Sequence record: PX502252.1
Direction: 5' to 3' (one strand)
DNA length: 44,418 bases
Source of the DNA: a phage
In this document: positions 1-44,418 of the stretch, one piece after another
How positions within the stretch are numbered: position 1 is the first letter of the stretch
How the letters are laid out: every line of letters starts with the position of its first letter
Position numbers and translations under genes: made by a program
Notes under the pieces: generated by a model
What the model saw: only the letters and a program-made list of their open reading frames with translations
What the model was told of the DNA's origin: nothing
Database searches by the model: none

Positions 1-88
1 TATCTGACTATTGCTTCGCATAATATTGATAGGCCATTCCTTCGGGAGTGGCCTTTTCTTTTACCTACTACCTGTAACATTTCATTAA
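1..88. repeat. Exact duplicate of window end (1-88 = 44331-44418); circular-permutation or assembly overlap carrying the last 23 nt of the RNAP gene and its terminator
   Basis: Direct comparison of first and last 88 bases of the window: identical. Confidence 0.9.
31..62 (+). terminator. Hairpin terminator downstream of RNA polymerase gene (copy of 44358-44389)
   Basis: AGGCCATTCC-TTCG-GGAGTGGCCT stem (9 bp, one G-U) with tetraloop, followed by TTTTCTTTT. Confidence 0.6.
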
Positions 89-97
89 CATAAACGT

Positions 98-29820: not shown

Positions 29821-30015
29821 ATGATAAACTCCGAACTGGTAGACAATGGTGTGAAGCTAGCGCCACCTGCATTAGTCTCAGGTGGGTACTTCCTCGGTAT
29901 CAGTTGGGACAATTGGGTACTGATAGCAACATTCATTTATACAGTGTTGCAGATTGGCGATTGGTTCTATACTAAATATACAATATGGAGGAAGAAGCGT
30001 GAGCGTGCACAATAA
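29821..30015 (+). CDS. Holin-like small membrane protein (64 aa)
   Basis: AGGAGG SD; hydrophobic segment WVLIATFIYTVLQIG and basic C-terminus RKKRERAQ; position equals T7 gene 17.5. Confidence 0.6.
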   Translation: MINSELVDNGVKLAPPALVSGGYFLGISWDNWVLIATFIYTVLQIGDWFYTKYTIWRKKRERAQ

Positions 30016-30298
30016 ACATGCAGCCACAGAGGATGAAGTAGGCATCCTGCATGGCGCTATTACGAAGATGTTTAATAAGAAAGCAAAGGCTATACTGGAC
30101 ACTATAGAAGCAGACCCTGATTCTGCTATGCACCTAGTGTCAGGTAAAGATATTGGAGCCATGTGTAAATGGGTTTTAGATAATGGCATTACTGCCACCC
30201 CTGCTGCACAGCAGGAGGAGTCCAAGTTATCTAAGCGCCTCAAGGCTATCCGAGAGGCGTCCAGTGGCAAGATCATTCAGTTCACTAAGGAGGATTGA
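29999..30298 (+). CDS. Terminase small subunit (start uncertain)
   Basis: Immediately upstream of large terminase with stop/start overlap; GTG 29999 has GGAGGA 6 nt upstream; ORF track extends to 29954. Confidence 0.55.
   Translation: MSVHNKHAATEDEVGILHGAITKMFNKKAKAILDTIEADPDSAMHLVSGKDIGAMCKWVLDNGITATPAAQQEESKLSKRLKAIREASSGKIIQFTKED
30091..30113 (+). promoter_or_regulatory. SP6-type phage promoter embedded in small terminase gene (TATACTGGACACTATAGAAGCAG)
   Basis: Core ACTGGACACTATAGAAG exact; in-frame encodes ILDTIEA. Confidence 0.55.
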
Positions 30299-32193
30299 TG
30301 GCTAAGGCAAGAGAATCACAAGCGGAGGCTCTTGCCAGATGGGAGATGCTACACGAGTTACAGCAGACCTTCCCTTATACCGCAGAAGGTTTGCTTCTCT
30401 TTGCTGATACAGTTATTCATAATTTAATTGCAGGTAGCCCTCATCTGATTCGTATGCAGGCAGACATCTTGAAATTCCTATTCTATGGACACAAGTATCG
30501 CCTCATCGAAGCGCCCCGTGGTATCGCTAAAACTACGCTGGCAGCAATCTATACGGTATTCCGTATCATTCATGAACCTCATAAGCGTATCATGGTTGTA
30601 TCACAAAACGCCAAGCGAGCAGAGGAAATCGCAGGTTGGGTTGTCAAAATCTTCCGAGGATTGGACTTCCTAGAGTTTATGCTGCCAGACATTTACGCTG
30701 GCGACCGTGCATCAGTTAAGGCATTCGAGATTCACTATACACTGCGTGGAAGCGACAAGTCTCCTTCTGTATCCTGCTACTCTATTGAAGCAGGTATGCA
30801 GGGTGCTCGTGCAGACATCATTCTAGCAGATGACGTTGAATCTATGCAGAATGCGCGTACCGCAGCAGGTCGTGCATTGCTTGAGGAATTAACCAAGGAG
30901 TTTGAATCTATCAACCAGTTTGGTGATATTATCTACCTTGGTACACCACAGAATGTGAACTCTATTTACAACAACCTTCCTGCACGCGGTTATTCTGTTC
31001 GTATCTGGACTGCTCGTTACCCTTCGGTAGAGCAAGAGCAATGTTATGGTGACTTCCTTGCACCTATGATCGTGCAGGATATGAAGGACAACCCAGCATT
31101 GCGAACAGGTTATGGTTTGGATGGCAACAGTGGCGCTCCTTGTGCACCTGAAATGTATGATGATGATGTCTTGATTGAGAAGGAAATCTCACAAGGTGCT
31201 GCTAAGTTCCAACTTCAGTTCATGCTTAACACTCGCATGATGGATGCTGACAGATACCCATTACGCCTGAACACTCTAATCTTCACCTCGTTTGGTACAG
31301 AGGAAGTCCCTGTGATGCCTACGTGGAGCAATGATTCCATAAACATCATTGGTGATGCACCTAAGTATGGTAACAAGCCTACAGATTTCATGTACAGACC
31401 TGTGGCACGTCCATACGAATGGGGTGCTGTTACACGCAAGATTATGTATATCGACCCAGCTGGTGGCGGTAAGAACGGGGATGAGACTGGCGTAGCCATC
31501 GTATTCCTGCACGGCACATTCATTTATGTATATCAGTGCTTTGGTGTGCCGGGCGGATACCGAGAATCGTCCCTGAATCGCATTGTGCAGGCCGCAAAGC
31601 AGGCGGGTGTTAAAGAGGTATTCATTGAGAAAAACTTTGGTCATGGTGCGTTTGAGGCTGTTATAAAGCCATACTTTGAAAGGGAGTGGCCTGTGACTAT
31701 CGAAGAAGACTACGCCACTGGTCAAAAAGAACTCCGTATCATCGAGACATTAGAGCCGCTGATGACCGCGCATAGACTTATCTTCAATGCTGAGATGGTC
31801 AAGTCGGATTTCGCTTCAGTACAGAATTACCCTCTGGAATTGCGGATGTCTTATAGTTTGTTCCACCAAATGTCGAACATCACTATTGAGAAGAACAGCC
31901 TCCGGCATGATGACCGCTTAGACGCTCTGTATGGCGCTGTGCGTCAATTAACTTCTCAGATAGACTATGACGAGGTTACTCGTATTAATCGCCTCAGAGC
32001 GCAGGAGATGCGCGATTATATACAGGCGATGAACACACCTAAACTTCGTCGGGCTATGCTGTACGGAGACTATGGTGATGAGCGAAGAACAACCAACACA
32101 TCCTTGGCAATGCAGCAGAGAGTTTACGGGCAGAATTGGAGGAACCGCTCAGGCTCTAGAAATACACTTTCCTCAAGGATTTCAAGGATTTAG
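30298..32193 (+). CDS. Terminase large subunit, T7 gp19-like
   Basis: Walker A-like PRGIAKTT, Walker B ADIILADDVE; 632 aa. Confidence 0.92.
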   Translation: MAKARESQAEALARWEMLHELQQTFPYTAEGLLLFADTVIHNLIAGSPHLIRMQADILKFLFYGHKYRLIEAPRGIAKTTLAAIYTVFRIIHEPHKRIMVVSQNAKRAEEIAGWVVKIFRGLDFLEFMLPDIYAGDRASVKAFEIHYTLRGSDKSPSVSCYSIEAGMQGARADIILADDVESMQNARTAAGRALLEELTKEFESINQFGDIIYLGTPQNVNSIYNNLPARGYSVRIWTARYPSVEQEQCYGDFLAPMIVQDMKDNPALRTGYGLDGNSGAPCAPEMYDDDVLIEKEISQGAAKFQLQFMLNTRMMDADRYPLRLNTLIFTSFGTEEVPVMPTWSNDSINIIGDAPKYGNKPTDFMYRPVARPYEWGAVTRKIMYIDPAGGGKNGDETGVAIVFLHGTFIYVYQCFGVPGGYRESSLNRIVQAAKQAGVKEVFIEKNFGHGAFEAVIKPYFEREWPVTIEEDYATGQKELRIIETLEPLMTAHRLIFNAEMVKSDFASVQNYPLELRMSYSLFHQMSNITIEKNSLRHDDRLDALYGAVRQLTSQIDYDEVTRINRLRAQEMRDYIQAMNTPKLRRAMLYGDYGDERRTTNTSLAMQQRVYGQNWRNRSGSRNTLSSRISRI

Positions 32194-34516: not shown

Positions 34517-34545
34517 TACATAGCTTTATGTATCAGTGTCTTACG

Positions 34546-34568
34546 ATTTACTGGACACTATAGAAGAG
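34546..34568 (+). promoter_or_regulatory. SP6-type phage promoter (ATTTACTGGACACTATAGAAGAG) upstream of receptor-binding protein genes
   Basis: Full consensus match; ORF track's 34536 start runs through it, so true CDS start is downstream. Confidence 0.8.
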
Positions 34569-34646
34569 ATAAATAGTGCCGTTCATTTGAGCGGCCTATT
34601 ACTAGCCAATCTTCATAGGGAGGGTTGGAAAGTAATAGGAGACAAT

Positions 34647-35714
34647 ATGGCTAAACTTACTAAAGTCTTCCAAGGCAGGGATGGTAAAGGTCAAGAGGAC
34701 TTTTATACCGGAGGTGGATGGAGCGGAGCCGATGGTGAGTCCGGTAGTATTTATAAAACTGTAGGCTCTCCACAAGAGAGTGCATCTAGGTGGAGATTTT
34801 CATTAAAAGAAAATGAACTAGTAGAAGAGCCTACCATCTGGTTAAATAAACGAACCAAAGTGTCTAGAAGTGATGGCATTAAAAGGTGGGATGCTGGCAA
34901 TTTATATTGCGGCCTAGATAAGATAGAAGGAGATGCATATGCTGCATCTTTAACTGGTGCAGCAAGACACCTAGGTGGGGAAGGGGATGTGATAGGTGTG
35001 CACGGAAGAGGTTGTGCCTATCATGGAAAAGCAAAAGTATGGGGTGGGTGGTTTTACGCTGCATCCAGAGTAGATAGCGAAGTTGTTGCAGGAGAAGCAC
35101 CTATTGATATGATAGGTGTTGAAATAAACTTAAACCATAAAAGAGAGGACATCTCTTGGACACCAGCAGAGGGTAAAGGCTTATACCGAGGCCTTGTAGT
35201 CACTACGGCAGATGGTGGAAAAAGATGCCATATAGGTATAGATGTTGGAGCACAAACCAGTAATAAATCAGAACCTTGGTATGTAGGGCTACGCATAAGA
35301 AAGGACAGCATAGTTCCTTTCAATGATGAAAGAGAAGGTAATGCGGCATCTGCAATATTAATAGAAGGCTCTACTCTACAATCCAAGGCGTATGGTGGTT
35401 TATCATTTAAGAATGGAACCCTAGCATATGGTATAGATTTTACAGGTATAGCTTTGATTGACAACCAAGCTGCATTGGTAATGAAAGATGACCATAGGAT
35501 CCGTTGGGGTTCAAGGGTGTCATCTAGATACATCTCAGGCAACAGTGTAACTGGTCAAGTAAATTTCAATAACTATGCAATTGCAGTAAATGGCAATAAA
35601 GTTATTGGAGAGCAACAACAAGCCATAAGTAATGCATCACAAGGTACAGAGGTTGATACTATAAATAATATCTTAGAAGCCCTAAGATCTCACGGACTAA
35701 TTAAGAGAGGTTAA
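34647..35714 (+). CDS. Putative tail fibre / receptor-binding protein 1 (355 aa), function unassigned
   Basis: TAGGAGA SD before ATG 34647; Gly-rich; located in the tailspike module; no confident domain call. Confidence 0.55.
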   Translation: MAKLTKVFQGRDGKGQEDFYTGGGWSGADGESGSIYKTVGSPQESASRWRFSLKENELVEEPTIWLNKRTKVSRSDGIKRWDAGNLYCGLDKIEGDAYAASLTGAARHLGGEGDVIGVHGRGCAYHGKAKVWGGWFYAASRVDSEVVAGEAPIDMIGVEINLNHKREDISWTPAEGKGLYRGLVVTTADGGKRCHIGIDVGAQTSNKSEPWYVGLRIRKDSIVPFNDEREGNAASAILIEGSTLQSKAYGGLSFKNGTLAYGIDFTGIALIDNQAALVMKDDHRIRWGSRVSSRYISGNSVTGQVNFNNYAIAVNGNKVIGEQQQAISNASQGTEVDTINNILEALRSHGLIKRG

Positions 35715-35718
35715 TATT

Positions 35719-35862
35719 ATGAAGGAAGAAGTTATTAAAAATATCTTAAAGTTTATGAGTCGAGTTGAATTACATGGGTATGAAGTTCCTGCTTTTGTTA
35801 TTTGTATGGACTCGCTTGAAGCTATGCTTCTATCAAGCAATGAAGACAAAGCGGATGTTTAA
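35719..35862 (+). CDS. Small protein (47 aa) between the two receptor-binding genes
   Basis: ATG 4 nt after upstream stop, GAGAGG upstream; followed by hairpin terminator; below ORF-track cutoff. Confidence 0.35.
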   Translation: MKEEVIKNILKFMSRVELHGYEVPAFVICMDSLEAMLLSSNEDKADV

Positions 35863-35868
35863 ACAGTG

Positions 35869-35890
35869 GCAGTGCGTAAGCACTGCTTTT
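35869..35890 (+). terminator. Hairpin GCAGTGC-GTAA-GCACTGC followed by TTTT
   Basis: Perfect 7-bp stem, GNRA-like tetraloop, T-tract. Confidence 0.55.
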
Positions 35891-35946
35891 CACGCAACTT
35901 TTCTTAAAGGTTATCATGGTGGTAGCCTTTCAGAAAAGGAGGGTAC

Positions 35947-37605
35947 ATGCTGCAACGATTAAGTGCTTCCTTAGTGAAGTACAAGAGCAAGCTCATAGGA
36001 GCTACCTATAGGTTGCTTGGTGATAAACTTTTAGAGCTAAATAGTGTATCAGATTTTGGTGCAATACCTAATCTTGAAACAGATAGTACTAACTCCATTC
36101 AAGCTGCAATTGATGCGACCCCGTCTGGTGGTACTCTAGGCTTCTATGGTGGGCCTTATAGATTTGGTACTGTTACAGTGGATAAACCAATTACACTAGT
36201 TGGAGATGCAGATTTGCAGTTTGAGTGCATTCGTATCAAGACAAGTAAGTTTCGTAGTTTCTTGACAGGAACACTAACTGCTGCAAGATACGACAGTGCA
36301 TGTCGTGCATTTCAAATCTTAGCCTATGAAGATGGGGAAGATTATGAGGACATCAAGGTACATGGTGCACGTTTCGAGGGTTTCTTCTATAACACAGACT
36401 TCCGAGGCCGTTCTTACGATGCGTCAGAAAGTGATCCCGCTAACAGAGTGGTTCGGGATACCTCCATTATGGGTTGTACTTCAGTTCAACCTAAAGATGG
36501 TAAAGACAGAGGGCACTTTCAACACGTAGGTGTTACCAATGCCAAGTGCATAGGTAACTCAACGTATGGTGGTAAGAATGCTACTTCTTATAACTTCATT
36601 AATGGTAATGGCTCTTTGGTGGTTATTGGTAATTATGACCATGACAATGAATACGGCTCCTTAGAGATTGAGAATAACAAGATAAGCTATGGTGTGGTTA
36701 CTGGTAATATCTTCCATAAACAACTATGGATAGATGATACTAGCAATATTAATGTAATAGGTAACACCTGTACAGATAGGATTTACATTACTGCACAATC
36801 TAACAACTCTGAGAACGTATCAGTAGTGGGGAATAATGTACCACGCATCTACGTCAGTAAGTTTGGTCAAAGCCCAACAGGGCGTCACCGTAACTTGACT
36901 ATACGTGGTAATCATATCACTGGCAAGGATGTTCCTAACTGTATCTTCTTAGATGATTCTGTTGATTCCGCTTCTATTGAAGGTAATGATTGTTATGGTG
37001 TGTCTGGTGTTAAAGGCATAGCCATTACTCGTCATGCAGATGCTAACCATACAGTGCGTCATAATAACTTACATGGCACTAACTTACTCTTTAGTGGTTC
37101 GGGCGGAAAAGTTTATAGTTATGACAACTTTGATGTTGGAGTTGATGAATCCCCTGTGGCAGACAGAACTGACGCAGTGCACATTGACAACCTTCTTCGT
37201 GTAAATGATGAGTACCTTGATTTGCCAGGAAAGTACCTATACAAATCTAAGTATACAAGAGACATTACACAAGGTGGCTCAACCACTATTGAGTTACCTG
37301 TAACCACAAGTGGTTCTTTGGCTTTTCGTGGTATTAGTTTATGGGTTCTTATCCGTAACACTTCTACGGGGAACTTGTCTTCTTATCGTGTAGATGGAAG
37401 ACATGCAGTAAGTGGTTCTTCTGTGACTGTTAGCTTTGGAGAGAAGTATGGGGTATTAGGAGTGAATACTGGTGATGTTACTGTTAGTAATGATGCCTCT
37501 ACGACTACTCTTATTCGTATCAAGGTAAGCAATGAGCATGTAAGTCAGACAATGCAGGTTACAGTTGTACCAGAGGTAACAAGCAGATTAGGGACTGAAG
37601 AGTAA
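35947..37605 (+). CDS. Tailspike with pectate-lyase-like right-handed beta-helix (polysaccharide depolymerase)
   Basis: AAAGGAGGG SD; N-terminal VSDFGAIPN...TDSTNSIQAAIDATPSGGTL...TLVGD typical of beta-helix depolymerase start; repeated GN-containing rungs (VIGNYD, VIGNTC, VVGNNV, IRGNHI, IEGNDC). Confidence 0.8.
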   Translation: MLQRLSASLVKYKSKLIGATYRLLGDKLLELNSVSDFGAIPNLETDSTNSIQAAIDATPSGGTLGFYGGPYRFGTVTVDKPITLVGDADLQFECIRIKTSKFRSFLTGTLTAARYDSACRAFQILAYEDGEDYEDIKVHGARFEGFFYNTDFRGRSYDASESDPANRVVRDTSIMGCTSVQPKDGKDRGHFQHVGVTNAKCIGNSTYGGKNATSYNFINGNGSLVVIGNYDHDNEYGSLEIENNKISYGVVTGNIFHKQLWIDDTSNINVIGNTCTDRIYITAQSNNSENVSVVGNNVPRIYVSKFGQSPTGRHRNLTIRGNHITGKDVPNCIFLDDSVDSASIEGNDCYGVSGVKGIAITRHADANHTVRHNNLHGTNLLFSGSGGKVYSYDNFDVGVDESPVADRTDAVHIDNLLRVNDEYLDLPGKYLYKSKYTRDITQGGSTTIELPVTTSGSLAFRGISLWVLIRNTSTGNLSSYRVDGRHAVSGSSVTVSFGEKYGVLGVNTGDVTVSNDASTTTLIRIKVSNEHVSQTMQVTVVPEVTSRLGTEE

Positions 37606-37754
37606 TGCCATTAATCAAATCAGTTAAGCAAAGTGCTGTACGCCAGAACACAGAAGAACTTATTCAATCAGGACGTGACCCTAAGCAGGCTTATGCCATT
37701 GCCAAGGATGTACAACGTCGTGCAATGAAGAAACCTTCTGCATCTTCTGCGTAA
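37605..37754 (+). CDS. Small basic protein (49 aa), translationally coupled to tailspike
   Basis: ATG overlaps tailspike TAA (TAATG); MPLIKSVKQSAVRQNTEELIQSGRDPKQAYAIAKDVQRRAMKKPSASSA. Confidence 0.4.
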   Translation: MPLIKSVKQSAVRQNTEELIQSGRDPKQAYAIAKDVQRRAMKKPSASSA

Positions 37755-37893
37755 GCAGGTTAATATCTTAGTTTACACAAGGACAGACCTATGATAGCTC
37801 ACAGCACACCCCTGAGTGCCGCTCTGGATTCTATGAATTGTTCCCTGACTATCTAGGTTTGCTCTTAGTGTATTCCAAAGGAGGTCACATGTA

Positions 37894-38154
37894 ATGTTGG
37901 TTGTATCTAGTAAGAAGAAGCAGAGTGAAATGGATAAGATAGTTCAGACTGGCCTTGCTGCTAAGTCTGGTCAACCTCTTAATACTGGAACTGGTTCAAT
38001 TGACAAGATTGTTGAAACAGGCAAACAGGCCATGTCTGTTGGGTTGGACAAGAGTGAAAGGAAGCAGGCTGAGTTCAATAAGATCATTGAGTTCGGTAAG
38101 GAAGCTAAGAGGAAGTTCTTAAGGCCGTCTGCGGTAGAACCAGTAAGACACTAG
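37894..38154 (+). CDS. Small protein (86 aa) with three internal [DN]KI[VI][QE]xG repeats
   Basis: AAGGAGG SD; repeats DKIVQTG, DKIVETG, NKIIEFG; last gene before repeat-dense terminal region. Confidence 0.5.
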   Translation: MLVVSSKKKQSEMDKIVQTGLAAKSGQPLNTGTGSIDKIVETGKQAMSVGLDKSERKQAEFNKIIEFGKEAKRKFLRPSAVEPVRH

Positions 38155-38159
38155 GAAAC

Positions 38160-38900
38160 ATCTTAGTGTTGTACAAGGAATAACCAAAGTCAAAATTTTG
38201 ATGTAGGCGTGTGTGAGGTGTCTCGCCCTCGCCCTCGCCGGGATGTCCCCATAGGGTGGCCTGAGGGAATCCGTCTCCGACGGGCAGGGCTGATGCACTC
38301 CTTGTACTAGCTTAGTAGTACACAAGGGATGACCGTACTAGTTAGCTGGTACAGCCTAGTCTTTGCTCATGTACTAGCAAGGTGGAACGCCGGAGAACGC
38401 CTAGGACGGCCTAGGGATGGCTTAGTGGTGGACAAGGTGATTGCCTTAGTGAAGCCTCTTAGTGCATTCCTGAGGCTATTCAGGGCCATTCCTGAGCGTT
38501 TGACAGGGTGGGCGTGGGTGGGCTATCTGTTCGTTTCGTCGCTGGCGCTCCTCACTTCGTTTCGCCTAGCGCTCCACTCACAAGCCTGACGTGTACCTTA
38601 GTCACTACCTTAGGTTGTTCCTTGATGGATAGCTTAGGTTAACCTTAGTGGATTGCCTTAGTTAAAGCCTTAGTGCTTCACTTAGTATCAGCTTAGTAGT
38701 GTACCTTAGTCAGTCTTAGTGTTAGACCTTAGTGACTACATAGCTACGCTATAAGATGCAAATAGGTCGCGGTCGGTAGACCGCTAATAAGAAGTAATAG
38801 TAATAAGATGCAGTAGGAGGAACACCAGAAACCTAGTCAGCCTAGCCTATCCTAGCTCTGTATCTATTGCGTTTCCTTAGTCTCACATGTTAGACAACCT
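38160..38900. repeat. Non-coding, repeat-dense genome-terminus region (GC-rich block then array of about 11 CTTAGT/CCTTAGT units); probable site of terminal repeat/concatemer junction
   Basis: CTCGCC x3, TACTAG x3, ATTCCTGAG x2, TTCGTTTCG x2, then CTTAGT repeats every 10-14 bp (38590-38750); no SD-led ORFs; analogous to T7 terminal-repeat heptamer arrays. Confidence 0.6.
38880..38895. promoter_or_regulatory. Palindrome variant GTCTCACATGTTAGAC (site 7, one mismatch)
   Basis: 15/16 match to the recurrent palindrome. Confidence 0.5.
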
Positions 38901-38962
38901 AGGTTTATCATAGTAGTTGTGACATGTATCACATAAATAATCTATCTTAGTGAAACTTAGTG

Positions 38963-38991
38963 TTGACACAGGCAATCAACAGGTATACATT
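38963..38991 (+). promoter_or_regulatory. Candidate host sigma70 early promoter (TTGACA - 17 bp - TACATT)
   Basis: Perfect -35 hexamer, 17-bp spacer, -10 with 3/6 match; positioned at start of early region. Confidence 0.4.
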
Positions 38992-39212
38992 AGCAATCAC
39001 TGAGGCGGACCTAGCAAGCTGCCTCAGGTTATAAGCAGGAGAATTGATGCGTAAGCCGTAGCTAGCGGATGTAGTCGCATGAAGGCTTGAGTAAGGGGCC
39101 GTTTAATACCTTCTTCTTCTGGAGACAAAGCTTATAATACCGCTCTTTAACAATTTGCTTAGTGTAACCTATGTATGCCGTGGTTAATTACTTATTGAAT
39201 GAGGTATTAACT

Positions 39213-39290
39213 ATGGGTAAGTTCCTTGCTGGTTTCATCCTTGCCACTGCTATCTTTGATAATGCAGCATTGGCTCTGGGTTTGTATTAA
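39213..39290 (+). CDS. Tiny hydrophobic peptide (25 aa)
   Basis: GAGG 8 nt upstream; MGKFLAGFILATAIFDNAALALGLY. Confidence 0.3.
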   Translation: MGKFLAGFILATAIFDNAALALGLY

Positions 39291-39311
39291 TAGACACAAG
39301 AGGGATTAACT

Positions 39312-39422
39312 ATGAGTTTAGCGACAACGAGTTACGAAGAATTATATGAAACCTACTACAACGCATTGGATGAAGGAGAAGAAGCATTATCCTTTGCTGA
39401 GTTTATGGAGGCTTTATCATGA
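39312..39422 (+). CDS. Small acidic early protein (36 aa)
   Basis: AGAGGGA SD; stop overlaps next start (ATGA). Confidence 0.4.
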   Translation: MSLATTSYEELYETYYNALDEGEEALSFAEFMEALS

Positions 39423-39601
39423 TTCTGAATAACCGTGAACTATCCGTTCTCTTCACCTTGTTATGCTATCTGATATATAGAAATGAGTCACTCAGTGATG
39501 ATGAGTTGTCTTTGTATCACCGCTTTCTTAACGATGGTTGGGTGGATACATTAAACCAGAAACGTGACTTGATGAAGGAGCTAACCAATGTATCAGCATG
39601 A
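39419..39601 (+). CDS. Early hypothetical protein (60 aa)
   Basis: ATGA-coupled to upstream ORF. Confidence 0.5.
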   Translation: MILNNRELSVLFTLLCYLIYRNESLSDDELSLYHRFLNDGWVDTLNQKRDLMKELTNVSA

Positions 39602-39812
39602 AGTTTTCTTTGAATCAGCCAGCGAAGCTATTCGCTTCTTTGAGGACATGCTGCGAAATGGTGTAGGTGTGCATGTACATAGCTTTCTACTAGATTATGA
39701 CACTGAATATCACCGCGTTACCTTGGTGTCTGAGTACGACCATCAAACGATTACCGAGTATCTAGGTAGCGAAGATTATGATTACGACCAAGTAATCACA
39801 ACAAACCTATAA
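39588..39812 (+). CDS. Early acidic hypothetical protein (74 aa)
   Basis: GAAGGAG 7 nt upstream of ATG. Confidence 0.6.
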   Translation: MYQHEVFFESASEAIRFFEDMLRNGVGVHVHSFLLDYDTEYHRVTLVSEYDHQTITEYLGSEDYDYDQVITTNL

Positions 39813-39991
39813 ATTAACTATTGACAGCCACGGCATACAAGGTTACATTAAGCATCAAGACGGCGACGTCTTTAAACATCCCGCTCTTTAACAATTTGGA
39901 TAGTCGCTTCTTAGTCTGGATAGGTTAAACCTAGGAGATTCTCTTGAGTCTCCTATAATGTAACCTAACTAACTAAATGAGGATTAATAAC

Positions 39992-40345
39992 ATGGCTATG
40001 TCTAATATGACTTACTCTCAGGTTTACAACACCGCTCACGCTGCATTAGTTGAACGTATCTGGGATGATGCTATTGATTGTATTGATAACGCACATGATG
40101 CAATCCATGAGGCGGCGGATAGGGCTGTACCAATCTATTATGCTGACATCTTCTCGGTGATGGCGAGTGAAGGCATTGATCATTTCTTCGAAGACTCCGG
40201 CCTGATGCCAGACGCTAAGGATGTAACGGTAGTATTGCAAGCCCGTATCTATGAGCAACTCACAATTGATCTGTGGGAACGTGTTCAGGATATGATTGAT
40301 GCATACATCGACTCCGCCGAAGATTTAGAAGAAGAGGAAGAATAA
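39992..40345 (+). CDS. ocr: Ocr-like DNA-mimic anti-restriction protein (T7 gene 0.3 homologue)
   Basis: 117 aa starting MAMSNMTY; shares HDAIH...[33 protein letters not shown]...[15 protein letters not shown] and acidic C-terminus with T7 Ocr as I recall it. Confidence 0.75.
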
Positions 40346-40346
40346 G

Positions 40347-40460
40347 ATGGAAAAACAATACAATTTCATCTTTTCAGACGGTGTGACCTTAAAATGTTCC
40401 TTGCGATTCGCACAGATTCGCGAGGAAGTGCTAGGAACTACATACAAACTATTTAGCTGA
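40347..40460 (+). CDS. Small early protein (37 aa)
   Basis: ATG 2 nt after ocr stop, GAGGAAG upstream; 3' end overlaps phage promoter. Confidence 0.35.
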   Translation: MEKQYNFIFSDGVTLKCSLRFAQIREEVLGTTYKLFS

Positions 40461-40774: not shown

Positions 40775-41659
40775 ATGACTACTGAAAACACCCTCCTGTC
40801 TGTTCGTGAAGCTGCAACCGCTGAGATCAAGCAACACTTAGACAATATCGGCACTTCTTACATCAAAGTTGGCGCTTGTCTTAATGAGTTACGCGGTGAC
40901 TTTGAAGGTCAAAAAGACTTTTTGGCTTATGTAGAAGCAGAAATTGGAATCAAGAAAGCACAATGTTACAAGCTGATGAGTGTAGCCCGTGTCTTTGAAG
41001 GCGATGATCGCTTTAAAGGCGTGGCGATGCGTGTAATGCTGGCACTTATTCCTTTCGCTGATGAAAATATCATCATGGAGAAAGCCGCAGAACTTGCCGC
41101 AGCGGGCAAGCTGGACACTAACGCCGTGAACGCCCTGATTGAGCCTAAGAAAGAGCCAAAGTCTGAGACGGTACAACCCAAGGCTGAGCCTGTAAAACCG
41201 CAGGAGAACGCGACTGCGTCCGCAGAATCACAGGAAACGCAAGCGCCGCAGGAAGTGCCGCCAGCAAGTGAGTCTGATGACGACGAATCAGCACCGTGGG
41301 AAGAGGAAAGCAAGCCGGAAGCGCCTAAGGCCGCGCCACTGGATAACACGGCTAACACTGAGAACGCCGCCATGTCTGGCCTGCTGGCACAAATTAAGTC
41401 ACTGACTGAGCAATTACAGGCAGCTAACGACCGCATCGCCGCCCTAACCAGTGCACGCGAAAGCAAGAAAGCCGCCGCTCCTATGCTCCCGCAATTCAAA
41501 TCTTCTTGCTTTTACGCTCGCTTAGGATTGAGCGCTGAGGAGGCAACGAAGAAAACAGCGGTGAACAAGGCACGCCGCGAACTGGTTAAGCTGGGATATG
41601 GTGAAGGCCATGAGGCATGGGCTTTAATCTCTGAGGCAGTAGAAGAATTAACTAAGTAA
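40775..41659 (+). CDS. Early protein (294 aa), two domains joined by acidic P/E/A/K-rich low-complexity linker; function unknown
   Basis: Position of T7 gene 0.7 but no kinase motifs recognised; ATG 40775 preferred over GTG 40766. Confidence 0.7.
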   Translation: MTTENTLLSVREAATAEIKQHLDNIGTSYIKVGACLNELRGDFEGQKDFLAYVEAEIGIKKAQCYKLMSVARVFEGDDRFKGVAMRVMLALIPFADENIIMEKAAELAAAGKLDTNAVNALIEPKKEPKSETVQPKAEPVKPQENATASAESQETQAPQEVPPASESDDDESAPWEEESKPEAPKAAPLDNTANTENAAMSGLLAQIKSLTEQLQAANDRIAALTSARESKKAAAPMLPQFKSSCFYARLGLSAEEATKKTAVNKARRELVKLGYGEGHEAWALISEAVEELTK

Positions 41660-41722: not shown

Positions 41723-44350
41723 ATGCAAGATTTACACGCTATCCAGCTTCAGCTTGAAGAGGAAATGTTTAACGGCGGTATTCGTCGCTTTGAAGCAGAC
41801 CAACAACGCCAGATTGCATCAGGTAATGAATCCGATACGGCATGGAATCGTCGCCTATTGTCGGAACTTATCGCACCTATGGCTGAAGGTATTCAGGCTT
41901 ATAAGGAAACCTACGAAGGCAAGAAAGGACGCGCACCGCGTGCACTGGCTTTCATTAACTGCGTAGAGAACGAAGTGGCAGCATATATCACGATGAAGAT
42001 CGTAATGGATATGCTTAACACTGATGTAACCTTGCAAGCCATAGCAATGAATGTAGCTGATCGCATCGAAGACCAAGTACGCTTCAGCAAGCTGGAAGGT
42101 CACGCCGCCAAATACTTTGAGAAAGTAAAGAAGTCGCTTAAGGCAAGTAAGACTAAATCATATCGCCATGCGCACAACGTAGCGGTGGTGGCTGAGAAGT
42201 CAGTAGCTGACCGTGACTCTGATTTCTCTCGCTGGGAAGCATGGCCTAAAGATACCTTGCTACAAATCGGTATGACCTTGCTAGAAATACTGGAGAATAG
42301 TGTATTCTTCAATGGTCATCCTGTTTTCCTCCGCACCTTGCGCACTAATGGTGGTAAGCATGGTGTTTACTACTTACAGACCAGTGAACATGTAGGGAAA
42401 TGGATTACAGCATTCAAAGAACATGTAGCGCAACTAAGCCCAGCGTATGCACCTTGCGTTATACCTCCACGTCCGTGGGTTTCTCCTTTTAATGGTGGAT
42501 TTCACACTGAGAAGGTGGCAAGCCGCATCCGTCTAGTTAAAGGAAACCGCGAGCACGTCCGCAAGTTAACCAAAAAGCAGATGCCAGCGGTTTACAAGGC
42601 TGTTAACGCTTTGCAGGAGACTAAATGGCAGGTTAATAAAGAAGTCTTGCAGGTAGTAGAAGACGTTATCCGTCTCGACCTTGGCTATGGTGTACCTTCA
42701 TTTAAACCACTCATCGACCGCGAGAATAAGCCAGCTAACCCAGTGCCGTTAGAATTCCAGCACTTGCGAGGCCGTGAGTTGAAAGAAATGTTAACGCCGG
42801 AACAATGGCAAGCCTTCATTAACTGGAAAGGTGAATGTACCAAGCTGTATACCGCAGAGACTAAGCGCGGCAGCAAGTCGGCGGCAACCGTTCGCATGGT
42901 AGGGCAGGCCCGTAAATACAGCCAGTTTGACGCTATTTATTTTGTATATGCACTGGATAGCCGTTCACGCGTTTATGCGCAATCTAGCACGCTCTCACCG
43001 CAATCAAACGACTTAGGCAAGGCGCTCCTACGGTTTACCGAAGGGCAGACTATAAACAGCGCTGAGGCGCTTAAGTGGTTTTTGGTGAACGGGGCGAATA
43101 ACTGGGGTTGGGATAAGAAAACCTTTGACGTGCGCACCGCTAACGTGTTGGATGGTGAATTCCAAGACATGTGCCGCGATATTGCAGCCGACCCGCTGAC
43201 CTTTACTCAATGGGTAAATGCTGATTCTCCTTACGGTTTCCTTGCATGGTGCTTTGAATACGCGCGTTATCTAGATGCGCTGGATGAAGGCACGCAAGAC
43301 CAATTCATGACGCACCTACCAGTACACCAAGATGGTAGCTGTTCCGGCATCCAGCACTACAGCGCTATGCTACGCGACGAAGTCGGTGCTAAGGCGGTAA
43401 ACCTTAAACCATCCAACGAGCCGCAAGACATTTATGGCGCGGTTGCTCAGGTTGTTATCCAGAAGAATTACGCCTACATGAATGCAGATGATGCGGAAAC
43501 TTTCACATCTGGAAGTGTAACCCTTACAGGTGCAGAACTGCGCAGCATGGCTAACGCGTGGGATATGATTGGGATCACTCGCGGCCTGACCAAGAAACCC
43601 GTTATGACCCTGCCATACGGCTCCACACGCTTAACCTGCCGTGAATCGGTGATTGATTATATCGTTGATTTGGAAGAAAAAGAGGCACAACGAGCTATCG
43701 CCGAAGGGCGGACGGCGAATCCTGTGCACCCTTTTGATAATGACCGTAAAGACTACCTGACACCGGGCGCGGCATATAACTATATGACTGCTCTCATCTG
43801 GCCTTCCATCTCTGAGGTTGTGAAAGCTCCGATAGTTGCCATGAAAATGATTCGCCAGCTTGCACGTTTCGCAGCTAAGAGGAACGAAGGATTAGAATAC
43901 CCCTTACCGACTGGCTTCATCTTGCAACAAAAGATAATGGCAACCGATATGCTTCGCGTATCCACTTGCTTGATGGGTGAAATCAAGATGAGTCTCCAGA
44001 TTGAAACAGATGTAGTTGATGAAACGGCAATGATGGGTGCGGCTGCTCCTAACTTCGTGCACGGTCATGATGCTAGCCACCTGATTCTGACTGTATGTGA
44101 CCTAGTGGATAAAGGTATTACATCCATTGCAGTCATCCATGATTCTTTCGGCACTCATGCAGGACGTACCGCAGACCTGCGGGATAGCTTAAGGGCAGAA
44201 ATGGTTAAGATGTATCAAGACCATAATGCCTTGCAAAACCTGCTGGATGTGCACGAAGAACGTTGGTTAGTAGATACCGGAATCCAAGTACCAGAGCAAG
44301 GAGAGTTTGACCTTAACGAAATCTTAGTATCTGACTATTGCTTCGCATAA
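41723..44350 (+). CDS. Single-subunit DNA-directed RNA polymerase, SP6-type
   Basis: 875 aa; N-terminus [32 protein letters not shown] and long stretches match SP6 RNAP as I recall it; motifs [14 protein letters not shown] and VHDSFGTH; cognate promoters throughout genome. Confidence 0.97.
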
Positions 44351-44357
44351 TATTGAT

Positions 44358-44389
44358 AGGCCATTCCTTCGGGAGTGGCCTTTTCTTTT
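44358..44389 (+). terminator. Hairpin terminator immediately downstream of RNAP stop
   Basis: AGGCCATTCC-TTCG-GGAGTGGCCT followed by TTTTCTTTT; same as 31-62. Confidence 0.65.
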
Positions 44390-44418
44390 ACCTACTACCT
44401 GTAACATTTCATTAACAT

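What the first reader, a model, noticed from the sequence alone, without database searches (positions are those of the whole stretch)
38160..38900. GC-rich, repeat-dense non-coding terminus with a CTTAGT array
A GC-rich block (38200-38590, far above the genome's composition) packed with short direct repeats is followed by about 11 copies of (C)CTTAGT at 10-14 bp spacing. T7 terminal repeats contain comparable heptamer arrays, so this probably marks the physical genome ends and the collapsed terminal repeat. The ORF-track ORF at 38329-38589 lies entirely inside it and is probably not a gene.
Basis: partly seen in the sequence, partly recalled or inferred. Interest (0 to 1): 0.6.

Follow-up and report, generated by a model that had tools for sequence, protein, structure and literature searches.

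The report
Collapsed terminal repeat of K1E-like phage
This stretch is the place where the two physical ends of a K1E/SP6-like (T7-supergroup) phage genome were joined by the assembler: one copy of its 305-bp terminal repeat, followed by a conserved array of twelve CTTAGT repeats; this is an ordinary, already documented feature of this phage group.

Summary
The window is a circularly permuted assembly (its first and last 91 nt are identical) of a Vectrevirus, a K1E/K1-5-like relative of SP6. Five linear reference genomes (SP6, K1-5, K1E, mutPK1A2, VEc3) carry exact direct terminal repeats. These start at (TCT)CTCGCCCTCGCCCTCGCCGG and end at ...GTGGGCTA|TCTGTTCG. Both boundary motifs occur once in the window. 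They place a single, collapsed 305-bp repeat at 38221-38525, which makes up most of the GC-rich block (57% GC against 45% for the genome). The CTTAGT array has 12 units, all on the + strand, at 38596-38733, spaced 10-13 bp apart (P about 5e-17). It lies 71 bp to the right of the repeat, not inside it. T7's (CC)TAAAG array sits in the same position relative to its own repeat. The array cores are better conserved than the spacers across 12 phages (0.89 against 0.72), and the spacing recurs in eight further metagenomic or isolate contigs. ORF 38329-38589 is not a gene. The function of the array is unknown, in T7 as well. My best guess is a cis-acting signal for concatemer maturation and packaging. 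Novelty is low.

The parts
38183..38220 (+). Conserved element at the right end of the unique genome, immediately left of the predicted left-end cut. It contains the perfect palindrome / A4T4 tract TCAAAATTTTGA (38190-38201).
   Evidence: Mean pairwise identity is 0.93 across 12 phages, against 0.44 for the 50 nt upstream. T7 has an A5 tract at the equivalent place (ATAAAAATCTGAGTGACTA|TCTC).
38221..38525 (+). Single, assembly-collapsed copy of the direct terminal repeat (305 bp). The predicted virion left end is at 38221 (TCTCGCC...) and the right end at 38525 (...GTGGGCTA). The exact end nucleotide is uncertain by about 2 nt.
   Evidence: Exact repeats at both ends of 5 reference records begin and end at the homologous motifs. 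Both motifs are unique in the window. Another IMG/VR record ends exactly at ...GTGGGCTA, and a metagenome contig stops 6 nt short of it.
38222..38256 (+). Conserved left-end motifs: (CTCGCC)x3 at 38222-38239 and CCCCATAGGG at 38247-38256.
   Evidence: CCCCATAG occurs 25-35 nt from the left end in T7, T3, K1F, SP6, K1-5 and Era103; K1E has the variant CCCCATATGG.
38263..38400 (+). Variable, indel-rich interior of the repeat, with GTACTAG-type short inverted and direct repeats.
   Evidence: Identity 0.46 and gap fraction 0.21. This segment accounts for the repeat-length differences of 174-305 bp between phages.
38500..38538 (+). Conserved context of the right boundary of the repeat: TTGACAGGGTG...GTGGGCTA | TCTGTTCGTTTCG. 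This is the predicted right-end cut site, between 38525 and 38526.
   Evidence: 38526-38538 identity 0.92. T7 and T3 have ...GTGTCCCT|ATCTGTTA at the same place.
38329..38589 (+). Mechanical ORF of 86 aa that spans the repeat boundary. It is not a gene.
   Evidence: None of the 11 relatives has its ATG, and they carry many indels whose lengths are not multiples of three. It has no Pfam or PHROG match. It lies upstream of every early promoter.
38539..38595 (+). Hypervariable GC-rich spacer between the repeat and the array.
   Evidence: Identity 0.22 and gap fraction 0.51.
38596..38733 (+). Array of 12 same-strand (C)CTTAGT units with a mean period of 11.9 bp. It is the positional counterpart of the T7 (CC)TAAAG array to the right of the T7 repeat.
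   Evidence: Cores are more conserved than spacers (0.886 against 0.717, Mann-Whitney p = 7e-7). The spacing pattern recurs in IMG/VR contigs. For the T7 array.
38734..38910 (+). Highly conserved non-coding block of unknown function. It contains ATAAGATGCA x2 (38751-38760, 38803-38812), which flank the hairpin GCGGTC-GGTA-GACCGC (38769-38784). It also contains a CCTAG cluster (about 38832-38858) and another CCTTAGT (38875-38881).
   Evidence: Identity 0.87 and almost no gaps. No Rfam match and no phage-type promoter.
38963..38991 (+). Best sigma-70-type early promoter candidate (TTGACA-17-TACATT), about 743-771 nt from the predicted left end, preceded by two more CTTAGT copies (38946, 38956). 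It lies outside the finding's coordinates but belongs to the same leader.
   Evidence: (10 of 12 consensus positions). It is conserved in most relatives. This is a consensus match only; function was not tested.

Best explanation
The region is the concatemer junction of a T7-supergroup phage (genus Vectrevirus; K1E/K1-5-like, SP6-related) as it appears in a circularised assembly.

Layout:
- The right-end unique DNA ends at 38220.
- One copy of the 305-bp direct terminal repeat follows at 38221-38525. It would be present at both ends of virion DNA.
- The left-end non-coding leader runs from 38526 to about 39212.

How it works. In the cell, replication and recombination produce concatemers with one repeat copy per junction. 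The T7-type terminase (TerS 29954-30298, TerL 30295-32193) cuts next to the conserved motifs at 38220|38221 and 38525|38526, and the repeat is duplicated, so that each packaged genome carries it at both ends. This step is inferred from T7/T3 biology.

The 12-unit CTTAGT array at 38596-38733 is the counterpart of the short-repeat array that follows the T7 terminal repeat. I infer that it is a cis-acting, multi-site protein-binding element used in concatemer maturation and packaging. For example, it could be a platform for the small terminase, or a signal met shortly before the terminal (left-end) cut, comparable in role to lambda cosQ/cosB.

The array also lies on the roughly 1 kb of DNA that enters the host first, upstream of the host-polymerase early promoters.

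What is shown: homology and position of the repeat, the conserved boundaries, purifying selection on the array cores, and absence of coding capacity.

What is inferred: the physical ends of this particular phage, and any function of the array.

My confidence is about 0.9 that 38221-38525 is the terminal repeat. It is about 0.4 that the array acts in packaging or maturation.
For: Identity of the phage: 98 phage records match, nearly all Vectrevirus/Zindervirus. The window ends overlap by 91 nt and are contiguous in relatives.

Terminal repeat:
- Exact repeats of 174-304 bp in SP6, K1-5, K1E, mutPK1A2 and VEc3 start and end at motifs that each occur once in the window.
- mutPK1A2 annotates the sequence as 'redundant repeat'.
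- IMG/VR locus L057 ends exactly at ...GTGGGCTA.
- The ends of the SP6-like UAB_Phi78 were mapped experimentally (PMC4837284).
- Short-read assemblers typically collapse such repeats and place them mid-contig (PMC10438801).

Architecture shared with T7/T3/K1F: TCTC at the left end, CCCCATAG about 30 nt in, the repeat ending next to TATCTGT, then a same-strand short-repeat array with a 12-13 bp period.

Terminase: TerL is 36% identical to T7 gp19 (E = 2e-99).

Array:
- Extreme same-strand clustering.
- Cores are more conserved than spacers.
- The base before CTTAGT varies freely, while units 5-12 are nearly invariant from K1E to SP6.
- Eight further contigs show the same or a similar spacing.

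Non-coding. No Rfam family matches.

Leader layout parallels T7, where about 850 bp of the left end enter first and host RNA polymerase then takes over (PMC11863960; PMC8954989).
Against: - No reads or virion DNA were available, so the ends of this phage are predicted by homology only. Reference records differ by 1-3 nt in where they start (TCTCGCC, CTCGCC or TCGCC).
- No experiment known to me assigns a function to the T7 array or to the CTTAGT array. A 2026 review says that initiation and termination in T7-type packaging are less understood than in cos or headful systems (PMC13595956).
- T7 packages right-to-left (from my own knowledge, not checked here). On that basis the array lies on the non-packaged side of the initiating cut, which argues against a lambda-cosB-like initiation role.
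- The array period differs between lineages (11.9 bp here, 13 bp in T7), so helical phasing is not conserved.
- The window has only a weak array to the left of the repeat: 3 CTTAGT in 520 bp.
- It has no phage promoters flanking the junction, unlike T7 phiOL/phiOR.
Confidence: 0.85

Rival explanations
1. The CTTAGT array acts at infection rather than at packaging. It would be part of the 'internalisation leader', the first roughly 1 kb to enter the cell. For example, it could bind an ejected internal core protein or a host protein to arrest or protect the leading end, or to modulate the nearby host-polymerase early promoters.
For: The array lies 376-513 nt from the predicted left end, and a sigma-70-like promoter lies at about 743-771 nt. 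This mirrors T7, where about 850 bp enter first and E. coli RNA polymerase then pulls in the rest. Further CTTAGT copies directly abut the early promoter (38946, 38956) and precede the first gene (39158). T7 promoter A1 likewise contains CTTAAAG.
Against: The DNA binding of T7 gp16 is reported as sequence-independent (PMC8954989). CTTAGT copies also occur inside the repeat and to the left of it, at the right genome end (38162, 38311, 38421, 38445, 38458), which enters last. T7 and K1E-like phages share the host E. coli but use different core motifs, which argues against a common host factor.
Confidence: 0.2
2. The array is an iteron-like replication origin or initiator-binding array.
For: Twelve direct repeats with a roughly 12-bp period resemble plasmid or phage iterons. 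From my own knowledge, T7 has a secondary origin near its left end.
Against: From my own knowledge, T7-group origins depend on phage-polymerase promoters next to AT-rich DNA. No phage-type promoter occurs between 34555 and 40460, and the array is not flanked by a marked AT-rich unwinding region (40-42% GC). I did not scan the gene set for an iteron-type initiator, so its absence is not shown.
Confidence: 0.05
3. The GC-rich block encodes a small protein (ORF 38329-38589, 86 aa, or the other short ORFs that some GenBank records annotate here).
For: An 86-codon open frame exists. CrRp3, Sem1 and 101117UKE2 annotate 'hypothetical proteins' in the homologous DNA.
Against: The start codon is absent in all 11 aligned relatives, frame-breaking indels are frequent, and the longest open run is 36-80 aa in shifting frames. 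There is no Pfam or PHROG hit. The ORF straddles the repeat boundary and sits upstream of all early promoters, with no promoter at the genome end.
Confidence: 0.02
4. The repeats have no sequence-specific function. They would be slippage or recombination debris tolerated in non-coding terminal DNA, or an assembly artefact.
For: The repeat interior and the 38539-38595 spacer are hypervariable. One public relative (NIC06P3) carries an obvious chimeric insertion here.
Against: The array is present with the same register in 12 aligned genomes and further IMG/VR contigs. Its cores are more conserved than its spacers, and it has almost no indels (gap fraction 0.024). An analogous array sits at the same position in T7, T3 and K1F.
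Confidence: 0.08

Closest known systems
Direct terminal repeats of SP6, K1-5, K1E and other Molineuxvirinae (Zindervirus/Vectrevirus)
   Same: The sequence is orthologous. It has the same start motif ((TCT)CTCGCCCTCGCCCTCGCCGG and CCCCATAGGG), the same end motif (TTGACAGGGTG...GTGGGCTA|TCTGTTCG), and the same position between the tail-spike end of the genome and the early region. The same CTTAGT array follows.
   Different: The length is 305 bp here, against 174 (SP6), 234 (K1-5), 286-288 (K1E, mutPK1A2) and 304 (VEc3), because of indels in the interior. The 4 nt before the cut read GGTG instead of the usual GCTC, a variant shared with P433.1. The window holds one copy instead of two.
Terminal repeat of phage T7 (160 bp) with its adjacent short-repeat array (CCTAAAG units, T7 positions about 175-357)
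   Same: The left end starts TCTC. CCCCATAGGG lies about 25-35 nt in. The repeat ends next to TATCTGT. It is followed at once by a same-strand array of a dozen or more heptamers with a 12-13 bp period, then by host-polymerase early promoters, with the first gene at about 0.9-1 kb. The large terminases are homologous.
   Different: The core motif is CTTAGT rather than CTAAAG. The period is 11.9 bp rather than 13 bp. The array starts 71 nt after the repeat rather than 15 nt. T7 also has a clear array left of the repeat and phage promoters phiOL/phiOR flanking the junction. The window has only 3 scattered CTTAGT copies to the left and no phage promoter within 2-3.7 kb. The small terminases are barely similar.
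Multi-site terminase recognition regions of other phages (lambda cosB/cosQ, SPP1 pacL/pacR); analogy only
   Same: These are clusters of short, oriented repeats placed next to a specific terminase cut site.
   Different: There is no sequence or protein homology, binding has not been shown here, and the packaging strategy differs (exact terminal repeats rather than cohesive ends or headful).

Membership tests
Short exact direct terminal repeat (DTR) of T7-supergroup phages | The same sequence is present at both physical ends of linear virion DNA. | not testable with these tools
   Only a circularised assembly with one copy is available. No reads or virion DNA were available.
Short exact direct terminal repeat (DTR) of T7-supergroup phages | Orthology to repeats that are terminal in related linear genomes, with conserved boundary motifs. 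| tested here: met
   Five reference records have exact repeats with the same start and end motifs. Each motif occurs once in the window, at 38222 and 38520.
Short exact direct terminal repeat (DTR) of T7-supergroup phages | Location between the last late genes and the early region, on a genome transcribed in one direction. | tested here: met
   A tail protein ORF at 35947-37605 and small ORFs lie upstream. Early small genes and the RNA polymerase gene (41723-44350) lie downstream. All are on the + strand.
Short exact direct terminal repeat (DTR) of T7-supergroup phages | The genome encodes a T7-type large terminase. | tested here: met
   ORF 30295-32193 matches terminase large subunit PHROGs (E = 3e-240) and is 36% identical to T7 gp19 (E = 2e-99).
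T7-type short-repeat array flanking the terminal repeat | About a dozen or more same-strand heptamer units with a regular 12-13 bp period, immediately right of the repeat. | tested here: met
   12 units with spacing 10-13, all on the + strand, starting 71 nt after the repeat. The T7 units lie at 175-357 with a 13-bp period.
T7-type short-repeat array flanking the terminal repeat | Core sequence (C)CTAAAG. | tested here: not met
   The core here is CTTAGT. Motifs are lineage-specific: T3 uses C(C/T)TAAAG, K1F CCATAAG/CCTACAG, and Era103 CCTTATGG/GGCTAGG. The array is therefore an analogue, or at most a distant homologue, not the same repeat family.
T7-type short-repeat array flanking the terminal repeat | A second array on the left side of the repeat, at the right genome end. 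| tested here: inconclusive
   Only 3 CTTAGT copies occur in the 520 nt left of the repeat (expected 0.15), widely spaced at 37767, 37864 and 38162.
Terminase small-subunit binding array (cosB/pac-like) | Demonstrated sequence-specific binding of the small terminase to the repeats. | not testable with these tools
   This needs a gel-shift or footprinting assay with the product of 29954-30298.

The most novel reading that the evidence does not exclude
The lineage-specific short-repeat arrays that follow the terminal repeat across the T7 supergroup (CTTAGT here and in SP6, CTAAAG in T7/T3, others in K1F and Era103) would be a genuine, co-evolving recognition platform for a phage protein, most plausibly the fast-diverging small terminase. 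They would control where concatemer cutting starts or stops. If so, this would supply the missing cis-element in the still poorly understood T7-type packaging pathway.
Probability: 0.3. Interest if true: 0.45.

Novelty: already known. Interest (0 to 1): 0.15.

Why it matters
The main value is practical.
- The true genome ends should be set at 38221 and 38525, not at the window's 91-bp assembly overlap.
- The virion DNA is predicted to be about 44,632 bp: 44,327 unique bp plus a second 305-bp repeat copy.
- ORFs called inside the repeat or the array should not be annotated as genes.

On the biology, the result adds one more instance to a long-standing loose end. The conserved short-repeat arrays beside T7-group terminal repeats have no assigned function. 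The contrast between conserved cores and variable spacers shown here makes them a reasonable target for a simple scramble-and-test experiment.

Tried and rejected
- Literature: the primary SP6 genome paper could not be retrieved by DOI or by a guessed PMC id, and the Serwer T7 packaging paper is not held. Full-text searches for CCTAAAG and CCTTAGT returned only unrelated papers. 'pacB' mostly matched 'PacBio'. Statements about the T7 SRL/SRR nomenclature, pacB, phiOR dependence and right-to-left packaging therefore rest on my own knowledge and are marked as such.
- Structured RNA: no Rfam match at E <= 1 in 37800-39500.
- Secondary structure of the repeat as single-stranded DNA: z = -2.2, which is not decisive.
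- Phage-polymerase promoter next to the junction (a phiOL/phiOR analogue): none. The best weight-matrix score in 37500-39400 is -3.5, against at least 25 for 12 of the 13 exact ACACTATAG sites.
- Coding hypothesis for ORF 38329-38589: rejected.
- The apparent 1.1-kb 'repeat' in NIC06P3 is a chimeric GC-rich insertion in that public assembly, not biology.
- The exact-pattern scan of IMG/VR with CTCGCCCTCGCCCTCGCCGG returned mostly unrelated high-GC contigs. Only 11 of 39 loci were SP6-like.
- The CRP-type palindrome is not statistically exceptional on its own.

Full report
**What the window is.** A megablast of 38100-39200 finds 98 phage records. Almost all are Escherichia, Salmonella, Klebsiella or Citrobacter phages of the genera Vectrevirus and Zindervirus (K1E, K1-5, SP6 and relatives), at 85-93% identity. 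The first and last 91 nt of the window are identical. In PDP21P6, the sequence matching the window end (to 14776) overlaps the sequence matching the window start (from 14686) by about 90 nt, which fits that overlap. The window is therefore a circularised, arbitrarily opened assembly. The break falls just after the RNA polymerase gene (41723-44350). Genes lie on the + strand in the conventional T7 order.

**Checking the observation.**
- 38200-38590 is 57.3% GC against 44.8% for the genome. This is z = 3.45 and the top 0.1% of equal-sized windows, although a block near 41096 is slightly higher.
- The block contains (CTCGCC)x3 and several 10-20-nt repeat families.
- CTTAGT occurs 55 times against 28.6 expected.
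- Eighteen + strand and no - strand copies lie in 38150-39170 (P about 3e-23).
- The array proper has 12 units at 38596-38733: nine exact CTTAGT plus CCTTAGG, CCTTGAT and GCTTAGG. Spacings are 12,12,12,11,13,12,12,11,13,10,13.

There are 12 units, not about 11. The array itself is 40% GC, and it is separate from the GC-rich block.

**Where the ends are.** I fetched both ends of five linear reference records. Each has an exact direct terminal repeat: SP6 174 bp, K1-5 234, K1E 288, mutPK1A2 286 (annotated 'redundant repeat') and VEc3 304.
- All five repeats start at (TCT)CTCGCCCTCGCCCTCGCCGG (CTCGGCCTCGGCC in SP6), preceded by ...CAAAATTTTGAT(A/G)TAGGCGTGTGT...
- All five end at ...TTGACAG(G/C)GTG-N9-GTGGGCTA. 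Four are followed by TCTGTTCGTTT; K1-5 has TCTGTTCCTTT.
- In the window each motif occurs once, at 38222 and 38520.

This gives a single repeat copy at 38221-38525, 305 bp, nearly the VEc3 length. An IMG/VR isolate record (L057) ends exactly at ...GTGGGCTA, and a metagenome contig (L052) stops 6 nt short of it. For the SP6-like phage UAB_Phi78, the ends were mapped by Bal31 digestion and run-off sequencing, giving a 179-bp repeat (PMC4837284). Collapse of such repeats to one mid-contig copy is the usual behaviour of short-read assemblers (PMC10438801).

The predicted virion DNA is 44,418 - 91 + 305 = 44,632 bp. The exact terminal nucleotide is uncertain by 1-3 nt, because the reference records start at TCTCGCC, CTCGCC or TCGCC.

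**Anatomy from a 12-genome alignment.**

| Segment | Coordinates | Mean pairwise identity |
|---|---|---|
| Element left of the left cut, with the palindrome/A4T4 tract TCAAAATTTTGA | 38183-38220 | 0.93 |
| Left part of the repeat, with (CTCGCC)3 and CCCCATAGGG | 38221-38262 | 0.89 |
| Repeat interior (21% gaps) | 38263-38400 | 0.46 |
| Right part of the repeat | 38401-38525 | 0.79 |
| 13 nt after the right cut | 38526-38538 | 0.92 |
| Spacer (51% gaps) | 38539-38595 | 0.22 |
| CTTAGT array | 38596-38733 | 0.79 |
| Conserved non-coding block | 38734-38910 | 0.87 |

Indels in the repeat interior explain the 174-305 bp length range between phages.

Within the array, the hexamer cores are more conserved than the spacers (0.886 against 0.717, Mann-Whitney p = 7e-7). 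Units 5-12 are almost invariant from K1E to SP6, while the base before CTTAGT varies freely. The array has almost no indels. The spacing 11,13,12,12,11,13,10,13 recurs in three further IMG/VR contigs and in two more with one extra CTTAG, and three others show a related 12-bp-period array. This pattern indicates selection on the repeated cores and their register. It is not what a coding sequence or neutral debris would show.

The conserved block at 38734-38910 contains ATAAGATGCA x2, which flank a GCGGTC-GGTA-GACCGC hairpin, and a CCTAG cluster. It has no Rfam match.

**The ORF.** The ATG of ORF 38329-38589 is absent in all 11 relatives (GAA, CAG or deleted). The relatives differ by many indels that are not multiples of three. 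The translation has no Pfam or PHROG match. The ORF crosses the repeat boundary and lies upstream of all early promoters. It is not a gene. Several GenBank records annotate comparable 'hypothetical proteins' here, probably wrongly.

**Comparison with T7 and others.**
- T7, T3 and K1F start with TCTC and have CCCCATAG about 25-35 nt in. The T7 and T3 repeats end ...GTGTCCCT|ATCTGTTA, and K1F has CTCTATCTGTAT at about 176-187.
- Each then carries a same-strand short-repeat array. In T7 this is (CC)TAAAG at 175-357 with a 13-bp period.
- T7 has only three copies inside its repeat.
- The core motif is lineage-specific: CTTAGT in SP6, K1-5, K1E and the window; CTAAAG in T7 and T3; CCATAAG/CCTACAG in K1F; other motifs in Era103. 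The position is conserved.
- The large terminase is clearly T7-type (36% identity to gp19, E = 2e-99). The small terminase is barely alignable with T7 gp18.

Differences from T7:
- A weight matrix built from the window's 13 ACACTATAG promoter sites (consensus ATTTACTGGACACTATAGAAG) finds no phage promoter between 34555 and 40460. There is therefore no phiOL/phiOR analogue.
- The left side of the repeat has only three scattered CTTAGT copies.

**Mechanism.** Shown: this is the orthologue of a terminal repeat, with conserved cut-site contexts, followed by a selected, oriented, non-coding repeat array.

Inferred from T7/T3 biology: concatemers carry one repeat per junction, terminase cuts at 38220|38221 and 38525|38526, and the repeat is duplicated during maturation.

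The function of the array is not established for any member of the group. A 2026 review states that initiation and termination of T7-type packaging are less understood than in cos or headful systems (PMC13595956). I rank the possibilities as follows:
- A packaging or maturation signal, either a multi-site protein platform or a termination-approach signal (about 0.4).
- A role in the entering leader (about 0.2). In T7, about 850 bp enter first and host polymerase then takes over. Here the best sigma-70-like promoter lies 743-771 nt from the end, and the first gene with a ribosome-binding site starts at 39213.
- No specific function (about 0.08).
- An iteron-type origin (about 0.05).

**Verdict.** The feature is an already documented property of this phage group. 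Its value is in setting the correct genome ends and annotation. The only open question, what the array does, is an old one shared with T7.

Noticed in passing
window 1-91 and 44328-44418: The first and last 91 nt of the window are identical. This is a circular-assembly overlap that completeness tools could mistake for a 'DTR'. The true terminal repeat is at 38221-38525. The break lies just after the RNA polymerase gene and its terminator-like hairpin.
   Followed up: yes
window 38918-38933 (with 38963-38991): A perfect CRP-type palindrome, TGTGA-N6-TCACA, is the only exact copy in the window. It is centred about 72.5 nt upstream of the start site inferred for the TTGACA-17-TACATT promoter, which is a classical class I spacing. 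It is conserved, with at most one substitution, in 10 of 12 aligned relatives, but it is not statistically exceptional by itself. It may mean that early transcription senses cAMP-CRP.
   Followed up: partly
L015 (OZ035778.1, Vectrevirus NIC06P3) about 550-1425: About 900 bp of 60-87% GC DNA with poly-C/poly-G borders, carrying actinobacterial-looking ORFs, is inserted exactly at the CCCCATAGGG motif of the terminal repeat. It is almost certainly a chimeric assembly artefact in the public record.
   Followed up: partly
L005 (K1E AM084415.1 44868-45083); L014, L016, L019: The annotated K1E gp48 CDS runs 120 nt into the right terminal repeat, which starts at 44964. CrRp3, Sem1 and 101117UKE2 annotate small 'hypothetical proteins' inside the repeat or array. 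These are probably spurious calls.
   Followed up: partly
window 34555-40460: No phage-RNA-polymerase promoter (consensus ATTTACTGGACACTATAGAAG) lies within 3.7 kb left or 1.9 kb right of the terminal repeat. T7 and T3, in contrast, have phiOR and phiOL flanking the junction.
   Followed up: yes
window 39139-39213: A very conserved untranslated element (GCTCTTTAACAATTTGCTTAGTGTAACCTATGTATGCCGTGGTTAATTACTTATTGAATGAGG) lies directly before the first small gene (ATG at 39213). A second, diverged copy of its 5' part occurs upstream in SP6 and PDP21P3. It may be an RNA-processing or 5'-UTR element.
   Followed up: no
window 37767, 38162, 38311, 38421 (and 37864): Outside the array, CTTAGT tends to occur as a longer composite, CTTAGT-N4-5-ACAAGG (17-nt family D2), in intergenic DNA left of the repeat and inside the repeat. 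The copy at 37864 is a looser variant ending CCAAAGG. This composite is distinct from the bare units of the array.
   Followed up: no
window 37894-38154 and 34536-35714: The last ORF before the repeat (86 aa, lysine-rich) has no Pfam or PHROG match, but an 87-aa homologue exists in NIC06P3. The 392-aa ORF at 34536-35714 also has no PHROG match.
   Followed up: no
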